NCBI RefSeq assembly: GCF_048403405.1
Contig: NZ_CP183129.1
Length of the DNA stretch: 64,000 nucleotides
Origin: Escherichia coli
GTDB taxonomy: Bacteria; Pseudomonadota; Gammaproteobacteria; Enterobacterales; Enterobacteriaceae
Strand: one strand, 5' to 3'
Part shown: piece after piece, positions 42,920 through 44,590 of the stretch
Layout: each line of letters begins with the position of its first letter
Numbering within the stretch: position 1 is the first letter of the stretch
The notes under the pieces: model-generated
The model's input: the letters and a program-made list of their open reading frames with translations, nothing else
What the model was told of the DNA's origin: nothing
The model's database searches: none
Program-made: the position numbers and the translations under genes

Positions 42920-43034
42920 GGTTCCTCCTTATCGTTCCCTTAAGAATACTGCGTGAGATAATAATGAGAAGCGGAGCACTCTGAAAGGAAGATGATGCTT
43001 TTTCTACCTCGCCATCGCGAACCAGACACTGGTT

Positions 43035-43412
43035 TTAGTCATACTGTATTTGCGGAGAAACTGTTGATAAAACATCAATAACATCATTTGACGTGGCAAT
43101 GACATAATGCTCGATCACATTATTTTTATAAATTTCACAACTTTGCATAGTAAACCATGCAAAGTAGGCGGAATTCACTACTCTATAGATCCCCGTTTGG
43201 TTAATACCGTGAATTCCTGACATTCCTAACAAATCACCTTCGTCAGTAACACGAAATGAATGTATCCAGTCAAATGATAACTTAACTTCTGACTTGATCG
43301 CCGGACATATGAGGGTAAGTTCAAGCCTGGCATTTTTATAGCTTAAATCTGATAGTTCGGCATTTTTAAAAGACAATGAAGTCGGAGTGATATTTATAAA
43401 ACATTCATCCAT
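43035..43412 (-). CDS. hypothetical small acidic protein (cassette gene C)
   Basis: 125 aa ORF with ATG and a Shine-Dalgarno (GAAGGGG) 9 nt upstream; AT-rich; no family recognised. Confidence 0.55.
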   Translation of the reverse strand: MDECFINITPTSLSFKNAELSDLSYKNARLELTLICPAIKSEVKLSFDWIHSFRVTDEGDLLGMSGIHGINQTGIYRVVNSAYFAWFTMQSCEIYKNNVIEHYVIATSNDVIDVLSTVSPQIQYD

Positions 43413-43531
43413 GTTAATACCCCTTCATATATGAGACTGCTCTCGATAGACGACACATTAACCTTCTGCAAAAACGGTGCGAGTCTGTTTACGTACCATG
43501 TATAATCGATGGACATTACTGTGATTTGAAA

Positions 43532-43981
43532 TTACCTTGTCCAGTCATCAACCATTTTTTTCAGGGGGAACATCTGCAATACATTCATTAATGCGAAATA
43601 TAATTCCCCCTGTGGCACCAATATTCTAATCTTCTCATCCCCTAAAATGAAAAATTGCAATTGACGTTTGAAACCTAATGTTTTATCTTCAGGTAATTCA
43701 GCTTGTATTTTTTTATTGATATCATCAAGGTAGATGTGATGACAATACTCATCAAACATACTCATTACTTCCAGACCGTTTACAGATGTCCATCTTTGTT
43801 CACTTTCCCAATAAACAAGAACCGGTTTGCGGCAGGTATATCTGCCTAAAAAGCGCTGAATGTGTTCTTCCTGATTCTCGTAAAATATTGCCTCTGCATT
43901 CGAGATTTGCCGACGCATTCGCCAGCGGATTTTTTCTTCATAAAAAGACAATTTGTCGCATTTGGTATTACTCAAATTCAT
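43532..43981 (-). CDS. hypothetical protein with E-x-C-H-H motif (cassette gene B)
   Basis: Track ORF 43532..43990 (TTG); more likely ATG at 43979-43981 (MNLSNTKCDK..), 149 aa; contains EYCHHIY; overlaps the upstream ORF end by 14 nt; no family recognised. Confidence 0.55.
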   Translation of the reverse strand: MNLSNTKCDKLSFYEEKIRWRMRRQISNAEAIFYENQEEHIQRFLGRYTCRKPVLVYWESEQRWTSVNGLEVMSMFDEYCHHIYLDDINKKIQAELPEDKTLGFKRQLQFFILGDEKIRILVPQGELYFALMNVLQMFPLKKMVDDWTR

Positions 43982-44445
43982 TGTCAACAACTCGCATGGT
44001 TTTAAATATAAAATTTAAAAAACCGCCAAACAAATGAAGTGAAATTTCATACTTCTTTGCCTTATAAACAATTACCGCATCTTTAATATTACCTGCATTT
44101 TGGTTATCTATAAGTTCAGCAATATCCATAACCTGCGATAAATGTTCCACTCCCGTAAACTCGAACCTTTTTCGTTCCCTTCCGGCTGTAAATTCATCAA
44201 CATAAAGTTCTGCCGTCAATATAAAATTATACTCGGTGTGGTGACATTCCATTCTGGTTTCTACTAAAACACCATCATGCCAGATAATATTGTCTAAATT
44301 TTTCATACTATTAATCCAATCCATTACTTTCTGATAAAATTTCCTCTGGAAGTTTTTCATAGAAAGAGATTAAAGCCTGACCGACGCAATCAAGCTCTAT
44401 TATTCGCTCATAATACGATCTCATTAAAATATCATGCTTACTCAT
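43968..44445 (-). pseudogene. frameshifted paralogue of cassette gene B (small ORF 44311-44445 plus ORF 43968-44360)
   Basis: 44-aa ORF with Shine-Dalgarno (AGGA) MSKHDILMRSYYERIIELDCVGQALISFYEKLPEEIL.. resembles the gene B N-terminus (TKCDKLSFYEEKI..AIFYENQEE); the +1-frame 130-aa ORF resembles the gene B C-terminus, including MECHHTEY versus EYCHHIY. Confidence 0.45.
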
Positions 44446-44532
44446 TGCAATACGTCCTGTTTACCATGGGCAGAGTATGAATGTAACTTATGTAAAATAG
44501 TACCGCCCTTGCTATTTTTCAGAATTCATAAA

Positions 44533-44565
44533 GAAAAAACCCGGCGCTAAATGCTTACCGGGTTT
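44533..44565 (-). terminator. rho-independent terminator of hrpA
   Basis: Minus strand reads AACCCGG-loop-CCGGGTT followed by TTTTTTC, 25 nt past the hrpA stop. Confidence 0.55.
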
Positions 44566-44590
44566 TAGATTTATCAGGCAAATAGCAGTG

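What the first reader, a model, noticed from the sequence alone, without database searches (positions are those of the whole stretch)
42920..44590. AT-rich cassette of unrecognised small genes between ydcF and hrpA
hrpA and ydcF are adjacent in K-12 (from memory), yet here they are 1671 bp apart. The extra DNA is visibly AT-rich against the flanking core genes and carries same-strand ORFs (43035-43412, 43532-43981, 43968-44445) that I cannot assign to any characterised family. Two are diverged paralogues sharing an E-x-C-H-H-x-Y motif and N-terminal S[YF]YE..I / FYE..EE stretches. A compact array of diverged small paralogues plus a third small acidic protein resembles immunity-gene arrays, small toxin/antitoxin cassettes or anti-phage cassettes. 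No toxin, nuclease or NTPase domain is evident, so function is open. This is the best candidate in the window for an undescribed system.
Basis: partly seen in the sequence, partly recalled or inferred. Interest (0 to 1): 0.75.

Follow-up and report, generated by a model that had tools for sequence, protein, structure and literature searches.

The report
Orphan toxin-immunity genes beside hrpA
The extra AT-rich DNA between ydcF and hrpA is a small, partly decayed cluster of stand-alone "immunity" genes whose relatives elsewhere sit directly behind contact-dependent (CdiA) and Rhs toxin genes, so it most likely protects the cell from other bacteria's toxins: a known kind of element built from undescribed protein families.

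Summary
The insertion is real. 1524 bp (window 42993-44516, GC 0.33-0.38) replace 128 bp of the K-12 spacer. It occurs in 586 of 5426 complete E. coli genomes.

The gene model needs correcting. There are three intact minus-strand genes, D (43035-43412), C (43532-43981) and B (43968-44306), plus the 35-codon stump of a fourth gene, A, which is intact in O157:H7-type alleles.

None of the four hits Pfam, NCBIfam or PADLOC, but distant homologues place three of them:
- **D:** relatives lie 7 nt behind CdiA genes.
- **C:** a relative overlaps the 3' end of a VgrG-linked Rhs toxin.

B, C and D relatives also co-occur in toxin-less immunity arrays elsewhere. No toxin gene lies in this interval.

Verdict: an orphan immunity-gene islet for CDI/Rhs polymorphic toxins. 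It is a new member of a known kind and of modest interest. Protection and expression are untested, and gene A is unassigned.

The parts
42993..44516 (.). AT-rich islet inserted in the ydcF-hrpA spacer. It replaces 128 bp of unrelated sequence present in K-12-type genomes.
   Evidence: blastn against the K-12 and strain 131 empty sites gives these breakpoints. GC is 0.33-0.38. 586 of 5426 complete E. coli genomes hold at least 80% of the queried 1671-bp ydcF-hrpA interval (42920-44590), and the rest have only the flanks.
43035..43412 (-). Gene D, 125 aa, pI 4.7, with a good Shine-Dalgarno sequence (GAAGGGG). Orphan CdiI-type immunity protein of an undescribed family with the conserved core FDWIHSFRVTDEGDLL...HYxIxTxxDVIDVLS.
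   Evidence: About 45% identical homologues lie 7 nt downstream of Fil_haemagg_2 + PT-VENN (CdiA) genes in Duffyella (L005-L007, L146). Others sit in orphan cdiA-CT/cdiI and Rhs arrays (L008, L013-L015). No Pfam, NCBIfam, PADLOC or PDB sequence hit. dN/dS is 0.27 against the O157 allele.
43532..43981 (-). Gene C, 149 aa. Its start overlaps the end of B by 14 nt. Orphan RhsI-type immunity protein of an undescribed family, with N-terminal helices followed by a PH-like beta domain and the conserved C-terminal motif LMNILxMFPL.
43968..44306 (-). Gene B, 112 aa, pI 5.2, all-beta. Orphan RhsI-type immunity protein of an undescribed family with conserved WHDG and DNxxAGNI motifs.
   Evidence: Homologues lie directly behind a conserved Rhs C-terminal toxin (…DPLGL|…GKWKDCGxGCRIRIDxD…GRHLHWEC…):
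- Citrobacter youngae (L060; 37% id, E 6e-25)
- a gammaproteobacterial MAG (L074)
- E. coli cq9 (L156)

A DNA search with the Citrobacter module matched 404 E. coli genomes.

44341..44445 (-). Stump of gene A: the first 35 codons, with the ORF reading on out of register to 44311. It is a pseudogene here and intact (141 aa) in O157:H7-type alleles. A is a helical family of unknown role.
   Evidence: tblastn of O157 A gives 83% over residues 1-35. RefSeq marks it as a pseudogene. The A family has about 25 relatives, mostly about 180 aa. An A-then-B gene order recurs downstream of hrpA in another enterobacterium (L017). No toxin neighbour was found.
44315..44336 (-). Deletion scar inside gene A: 22 bp standing in place of 313 bp of the O157-type allele.
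   Evidence: blastn of the window against L002 shows the alignment breaking at 44314/44337, against L002 2882/3196.
44534..44566 (-). hrpA intrinsic terminator (AAAACCCGG…CCGGGTTTTTT). This is flanking core sequence retained in empty-site genomes and marks the hrpA-side edge of the hotspot.
   Evidence: Read directly from the sequence. It is conserved in K-12. The simple terminator scan did not list it.

Best explanation
The ydcF-hrpA insert is a toxin-less islet of orphan immunity genes for polymorphic, contact-delivered toxins (CdiA of type V secretion, Rhs of type VI secretion).

Each of B, C and D is a small cytoplasmic protein from a different family. Homologues of each are encoded immediately after a toxin's variable C-terminal domain, which is the position of the cognate immunity protein that binds and blocks that toxin.

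In this genome the genes stand alone, co-oriented and tightly packed. The likely working model is that they are transcribed together from the hrpA-side edge. If a neighbouring bacterium injects a matching toxin domain, the pre-made immunity protein binds it and the cell survives.

Shown here:
- the insert and its limits
- the gene models
- the unrelatedness of the four families
- the toxin-adjacent position of homologues
- the immunity-protein fold of B
- the absence of any toxin gene in the interval

Inferred:
- that the E. coli copies still bind a toxin
- which toxin variants they neutralise, since 35-46% identity to the toxin-linked homologues suggests other specificities
- expression
- the role of gene A
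For: - **D:** 55 homologues. P0038 lies 7 nt after CdiA genes with Fil_haemagg_2 and PT-VENN domains in three loci and on Duffyella plasmid pEM02. P0057 lies inside a Cedecea orphan cdiA-CT/cdiI array. D-family genes also sit in Rhs orphan arrays.
- **C:** P0081 overlaps the stop of a VgrG-adjacent 1500-aa Rhs. There is a CdiI_3::C fusion in L016.
- **Co-occurrence:** B, C and D families sit together in L016 with DUF596, CdiI_3 and ankyrin genes. B sits with Imm-NTF2-2 in L021.
- **Alternative allele:** the other allele at the same site carries an SMI1/KNR4 (SUKH) protein, a classic immunity superfamily, in 186 genomes.
- **Selection:** dN/dS is 0.27-0.60, below 1 but far above the flanks at 0.01-0.06. 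This fits fast-evolving accessory genes that are still constrained.
- **No other function indicated:** no signal peptide or membrane segment is visible in the sequences, and no enzymatic domain was found.
Against: - No experiment or expression data were available for these genes.
- Immunity is highly specific, and the E. coli proteins are only 35-46% identical to the homologues that sit beside toxins. No matching toxin was identified.
- Gene A has no toxin-linked relative. It is dead in this window.
- The locus shows repeated decay: the A deletion here, an A::D fusion in P0068, B plus a D stump in L004, and a D stump in L003. dN/dS is relaxed.
- Several B and C homologues stand alone among housekeeping genes, where position gives no functional clue.
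- The toxin contexts for C come from one protein cluster (P0081).
Confidence: 0.75

Rival explanations
1. Dead relic. The genes descend from immunity genes of an old Rhs/CDI orphan array, but the islet is now a silenced, decaying remnant that gives no protection.
For: - Gene A is deleted in the window, and several other deletion variants exist at the locus.
- dN/dS of 0.53-0.60 for C and B is high.
- About 89% of E. coli genomes lack the islet.
- No clear promoter was found.
- The AT-rich composition is typical of xenogeneic DNA that is often silenced; that link is an inference.
Against: - B, C and D keep intact reading frames in both the window-type and the roughly 8% diverged O157-type alleles, and dN/dS stays below 1.
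- B is also intact at 64% identity in another Escherichia genome.
- Family-conserved residues (WHDG, AGNI, LMNIL.MFPL, the FDWIHSFRVTDEGDLL core) are retained.
Confidence: 0.15
2. A toxin-antitoxin or anti-phage defence cassette in which one small protein is a toxin or effector and its neighbour neutralises or senses.
For: It is a compact co-oriented array of small genes in an AT-rich accessory islet. An A-B gene order recurs in another genus.
Against: - No PADLOC, Pfam or NCBIfam hit for any of the four.
- The DNA has no match in phages, and in plasmids only a 48-nt match to the Duffyella D homologue and a 95-nt flank match.
- B, C and D homologues occur singly, each behind a different secreted toxin, rather than as fixed pairs with each other.
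- The islet genes are lost one at a time in natural variants, which a TA pair would not tolerate.
Confidence: 0.05
3. Chance ORFs in AT-rich non-coding filler.
Against: Each of B, C and D has tens of homologues down to 25-45% identity across genera. AF2 models have pLDDT 90-93. dN/dS is below 1.
Confidence: 0.01

Closest known systems
Orphan cdiA-CT/cdiI and rhs-CT/rhsI modules of Enterobacteria (Poole et al. 2011, PMC3150448)
   Same: The genes are small and highly variable, and their homologues sit right after CdiA or Rhs C-terminal toxin domains. Arrays mix unrelated immunity families. The DNA is AT-rich and horizontally acquired.
   Different: Classic orphan modules lie downstream of a cdiBAI or rhs locus and keep a toxin-CT fragment in front of each immunity gene. 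Here there is no cdi or rhs locus nearby and no CT fragment. The genes abut or overlap, and the site is a housekeeping intergenic spacer.
Acquired interbacterial defence (AID) orphan-immunity islands of Bacteroidales (from my own knowledge; not read here)
   Same: Clusters of immunity genes without their toxins, variably present among strains, and presumed to protect against other strains' or species' contact-delivered toxins.
   Different: AID islands are large, lie on mobile elements, and in one class are assembled by a recombinase. This islet has three or four genes, no recombinase, integrase or repeats, and its protective effect is untested.
PIM7, immunity protein of the DNase polymorphic toxin PT7 (PDB 8owu; bioRxiv 10.1101/2021.10.19.465003)
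   Different: Sequence identity is 15%, and a B-family profile finds no PDB sequence. The toxin next to B homologues (GRHLHWEC-type Rhs-CT) has no detectable sequence similarity to any PDB chain, PT7 included.
SUKH / SMI1-KNR4 immunity proteins
   Same: A SUKH gene occupies the same ydcF-hrpA site in an alternative E. coli allele, which shows the site collects immunity-type genes.
   Different: A, B, C and D have no SUKH or other Pfam immunity-domain match.

Membership tests
CdiI (CDI immunity protein, functional class): gene D | Encoded immediately downstream of the cdiA C-terminal toxin region | tested here: met
   This holds for homologues, not for the window copy. P0038 (46% id) starts 7 nt after Fil_haemagg_2/PT-VENN proteins in L005-L007 and pEM02. 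In the window no cdiA lies upstream, so the gene is an orphan.
CdiI (CDI immunity protein, functional class): gene D | Binds and neutralises its cognate CdiA-CT | not testable with these tools
   Needs co-expression or binding assays with the Duffyella-type CdiA-CT.
RhsI (Rhs immunity protein, functional class): genes B and C | Encoded immediately downstream of an Rhs C-terminal toxin domain (after the PxxxxDPxGL core end) | tested here: met
   This holds for homologues. B family: L060, L074, L156. C family: L014. The window copies have no rhs upstream.
RhsI (Rhs immunity protein, functional class): genes B and C | Specific neutralisation of the cognate Rhs-CT | not testable with these tools
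   Requires toxicity-rescue assays.
Curated immunity-protein families in Pfam (Imm*, CdiI_*, SUKH, etc.) | Significant match to the family HMM | tested here: not met
   No Pfam hit for A, B, C or D, nor for 119 further family members scanned individually (121 A-D family members were scanned in total). The one exception is the N-terminal CdiI_3 domain of a fusion protein.
PIM7-like immunity fold | Structural similarity to PIM7 clearly above background | tested here: met
PIM7-like immunity fold | Sequence homology to PIM7, or pairing with a PT7-type toxin | tested here: not met
   The B-family profile finds no PDB sequence at E of 10 or lower. The neighbouring Rhs-CT finds no PDB sequence.
Orphan immunity islet (immunity genes without toxin) | No toxin gene in or next to the cluster | tested here: met
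   The interval holds only A', B, C and D. The flanks are ydcF, aldA, hrpA and azoR. There are no VENN or Rhs core remnants among the ORFs.
Orphan immunity islet (immunity genes without toxin) | Confers protection against non-self toxins | not testable with these tools
   Needs competition assays.
Type II toxin-antitoxin module | Adjacent toxin and antitoxin genes of recognisable families, inherited as a pair | tested here: not met
   No TA domain was found. Natural variants lose single genes.
Known anti-phage defence systems | Match to a defence-system protein model | tested here: not met
   PADLOC gives no families at E of 1 or lower for all six proteins tested.

The most novel reading that the evidence does not exclude
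The 3' flank of hrpA is a conserved, recombinase-free collecting site for orphan immunity genes across Enterobacterales.

Different genera hold different combinations there: A-B-C-D in O157-type E. coli, A-B in L017, B plus an LprI protein in L019, and SUKH in another E. coli allele.

The islet would give cross-strain and cross-genus protection against Rhs and CDI toxins. It would also define three or four new immunity families and at least one new Rhs toxin domain (GRHLHWEC type).
Probability: 0.4. Interest if true: 0.5.

Novelty: new member of a known kind. Interest (0 to 1): 0.35.

Why it matters
Orphan immunity genes shape who survives contact-dependent warfare in the gut. About 11% of sequenced E. 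coli, including O157:H7-type strains, carry this islet.

If B, C and D are active, they predict resistance to particular Rhs and CDI toxins. They also give names to four 'hypothetical protein' families that current domain libraries miss, and to a widespread uncharacterised Rhs toxin domain.

The practical value is better annotation plus a set of directly testable toxin/immunity pairs. It does not overturn any current concept.

Tried and rejected
- **Family libraries:** Pfam, NCBIfam and PADLOC on A-D and on the neighbouring toxin C-terminal domains gave nothing.
- **Word-indexed protein search:** it found only Escherichia/Shigella copies of B and C.
- **Paralogy among the four genes:** rejected by BLASTP. 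An apparent A-versus-D HMM hit was traced to a natural A::D deletion-fusion protein (P0068) in my D alignment.
- **Degenerate WHDG…AGNI DNA pattern on genome contigs:** 120 loci were returned, of which only 5 were true B-family genes.
- **A-family DNA pattern on metagenomes:** it returned only E. coli-type copies and one 1.3-kb contig, so gene A stays unassigned.
- **tblastn of B, C and an A relative against plasmids:** no match.
- **Islet DNA against phages:** no match.
- **Rfam:** nothing meaningful.
- **Promoter and terminator scan:** no more sites than in shuffled sequence.
- **C model:** only generic PH-like matches.
- **DNA search in E. coli for the toxins paired with C and D homologues:** only the shared N-terminal entry-domain segment was found.

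Full report
**1. What is there**

ydcF (42119-42919) and hrpA (44591-48493) both lie on the minus strand, 1671 bp apart. GC falls from about 0.50-0.55 in the flanks to 0.33-0.38 across the gap. In K-12 BW25113 the two genes are 271 bp apart.

Alignment to two empty-site genomes sets the insert at window 42993-44516. These 1524 bp replace 128 bp of unrelated spacer. The hrpA terminator hairpin is retained on the hrpA side.

A megablast of the interval against 5426 complete E. coli genomes shows 586 genomes with at least 80% of it. Nearly all the rest match only the flanks. The insertion is therefore real, non-random and strain-variable.

**2. Corrected gene model**

RefSeq annotation of a 99.9% identical islet (strain CFSAN061763) and the ORF table agree on three intact minus-strand genes:
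- D, 43035-43412, 125 aa
- C, 43532-43981, 149 aa
- B, 43968-44306, 112 aa

There is also a pseudogene stump at the hrpA end.

The O157:H7-type allele (L002) is about 92% identical and 1947 bp long. It carries a fourth intact gene, A (141 aa), upstream of B. In the window, 313 bp of A are replaced by 22 bp (44315-44336). This leaves 35 homologous codons at 44341-44445.

The proposed paralogy does not hold. BLASTP gives E=1.0 for A vs C, E=2.4 for B vs C, and nothing for B vs D. The 'CHH' and 'FYE' residues are not conserved in the family alignments.

The genes are tightly packed. B and C overlap by 14 nt, and A and B are 4 nt apart in O157. D follows a 120-nt gap and has a good Shine-Dalgarno sequence. 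No signal peptide or hydrophobic segment is apparent in the sequences.

**3. No known domain, but real protein families**

Pfam, NCBIfam and PADLOC give nothing for A, B, C or D.

A word-indexed search found only Escherichia/Shigella copies of B and C, but 55 relatives of D in Erwiniaceae, Cedecea, Citrobacter and others.

A full HMMER search of 1.84 billion representatives, run with A+B+C concatenated, returned 125 hits. They fall cleanly into three separate families (alignments).

Scanning 123 pooled sequences individually against Pfam confirmed that none of the four families is covered. The set was 121 A-D family members plus the two proteins of the alternative allele. The only exception among family members is a CdiI_3 domain fused in front of one C-family protein.

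AF2 models are confident:
- B has pLDDT 92.9 and is all-beta.
- C has pLDDT 90.0, with N-terminal helices followed by a beta domain.

**4. Genomic context of the relatives**

*D.* In three Duffyella loci and on plasmid pEM02, the 46%-identical homologue begins 7 nt after a filamentous-haemagglutinin / PT-VENN protein, that is CdiA. This is the CdiI position. In Cedecea neteri it lies within a long array of orphan cdiA-CT/cdiI modules carrying CdiA_C, EndoU, CdiA_C_tRNase and Ntox33 domains. HMM searches also find D-family genes as orphans inside Rhs arrays (L013-L015).

*C.* The 40%-identical P0081 overlaps the last 62 nt of a VgrG-adjacent, 1500-aa Rhs protein. That protein has a PAAR-like N-terminus, YD repeats and a DPLGL core end, followed by a variable C-terminal domain. 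The same gene also sits in a mixed Rhs-CT/CdiA-CT orphan array (L013).

*B.* A degenerate DNA scan plus HMM filtering found B-family genes in two toxin-adjacent settings:
- 18 nt after an orphan Rhs-CT in Citrobacter youngae
- overlapping the end of an Rhs-CT in a gammaproteobacterial MAG

The two toxin domains are 48% identical (E 1e-36) and share …GxWKDCGxGCRIRIDxD…GRHLHWEC….

A DNA search with the Citrobacter module matched 404 E. coli genomes at 71.5% identity. In strain cq9, the one inspected, the order is VgrG, Rhs, RhsI, orphan Rhs-CT, B-family gene.

Window B is 37% identical to the Citrobacter gene (E 6e-25) and 35% identical to the E. coli cq9 gene.

*Co-occurrence.* One metagenomic contig (L016) carries DUF596, a CdiI_3::C-family fusion, an ankyrin protein, a B-family gene and the start of a D-family gene in a row. 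In Entomomonas, B lies in a same-strand array with an Imm-NTF2-2 gene.

**5. Structure**

The PT7/PIM7 paper reports that PIM7 occludes the nuclease active site through an Asp in the alpha1-betaA loop. B's near-invariant WHDG occupies the equivalent N-terminal position. That correspondence is my inference.

**6. The locus as a hotspot**

- A second E. coli allele, in 186 genomes, has a SUKH (SMI1/KNR4) gene plus a 103-aa ORF on the opposite strand, with a stump of D.
- Another Escherichia genome has B followed by a truncated D.
- One protein cluster is an A::D deletion fusion.
- In two other enterobacterial contigs the genes directly after hrpA are A-family then B-family (L017), or B-family then an LprI protein (L019).
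- No integrase, transposase or flanking repeats were seen.
- The islet DNA has no match in phages. In plasmids it gives only a 48-nt hit to the Duffyella D homologue and a 95-nt flank match.

**7. Selection**

Comparing the window with the O157 allele by Nei-Gojobori gives:

| Gene | dN/dS |
|---|---|
| D | 0.27 |
| C | 0.53 |
| B | 0.60 |
| ydcF | 0.06 |
| hrpA 3' part | 0.013 |

B against the 64% homologue gives about 0.2. Counts are small (4-16 synonymous differences), so this shows only relaxed but non-neutral evolution.

**8. Interpretation**

The simplest reading is an islet of orphan immunity genes for CDI and Rhs polymorphic toxins.

Shown here:
- homologues occupy the immunity position next to toxins
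- B has the fold of a solved immunity protein
- the four families are unrelated to one another
- the interval holds no toxin gene

Inferred:
- current toxin-binding activity
- specificity
- co-transcription
- any role for A

The main rival is that the islet is a silenced, decaying relic. That concerns present function, not origin. TA, defence-system and chance-ORF readings have essentially no support.

**9. Novelty and score**

Orphan immunity genes and orphan CT/immunity modules are well established (for example PMC3150448). No paper in the searchable library mentions this locus, and the families are absent from Pfam and NCBIfam.

This is a new member of a known kind. It is useful for annotation, and it yields testable toxin/immunity pairs and an uncharacterised Rhs toxin domain. 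It would not surprise a specialist. Interest 0.35.

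Noticed in passing
window 39440-40441 (+): A full-length 333-aa glyceraldehyde-3-phosphate dehydrogenase ORF lies next to aldA. From memory, its K-12 counterpart gapC is a split pseudogene, so this strain appears to keep an intact copy.
   Followed up: no
L003 1890-2680 (E. coli strain 51489); same site as window 42993-44516: An alternative allele of the ydcF-hrpA site carries an SMI1/KNR4 (SUKH) gene plus a 103-aa ORF on the opposite strand, together with a stump of gene D. 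It is present in 186 of 5426 genomes, and one copy is interrupted by IS1 (H33).
   Followed up: partly
L017 6001-6796 and L019 6001-6814: In two non-Escherichia enterobacterial contigs, the genes directly after hrpA are A-family then B-family, or B-family then an LprI-domain protein. The hrpA 3' flank seems to collect such genes across genera. The host organisms were not identified.
   Followed up: partly
L060 2845-3285, L074 2208-2702, L156 5869-6444: A conserved Rhs C-terminal toxin domain (…GKWKDCGxGCRIRIDxD…GRHLHWEC…, with a hydrophobic tail) has no PDB or NCBIfam match. A DNA search with the Citrobacter module matched 404 E. coli genomes.
   Followed up: partly
L014 about 5650-5800 and L006 about 6600-6750: The Rhs toxin paired with the C homologue and the CdiA toxin paired with the D homologue share an N-terminal segment of their variable regions (NPNxGxxLTxxEKxELGGxGxGxPxGWGPxDEE). 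The same segment matches the CdiA-CT tRNA nucleases in PDB 5j43 and 5j5v. It is probably a common cell-entry domain.
   Followed up: partly
L016 624-1337: A single 237-aa protein joins a CdiI_3 (PF18616) domain to a C-family domain, a possible two-specificity immunity fusion.
   Followed up: no
L005/L006 7434-7766 and L146 5427-5759: A SymE-family type I toxin gene lies convergent to, and right after, the D homologue in the Duffyella CdiA loci.
   Followed up: no
P0068; L004 8336-8611: These are natural decay variants of the islet. One is an in-frame A::D fusion that has lost B and C. The other is an Escherichia genome retaining only B plus the C-terminal two-thirds of D.
   Followed up: partly
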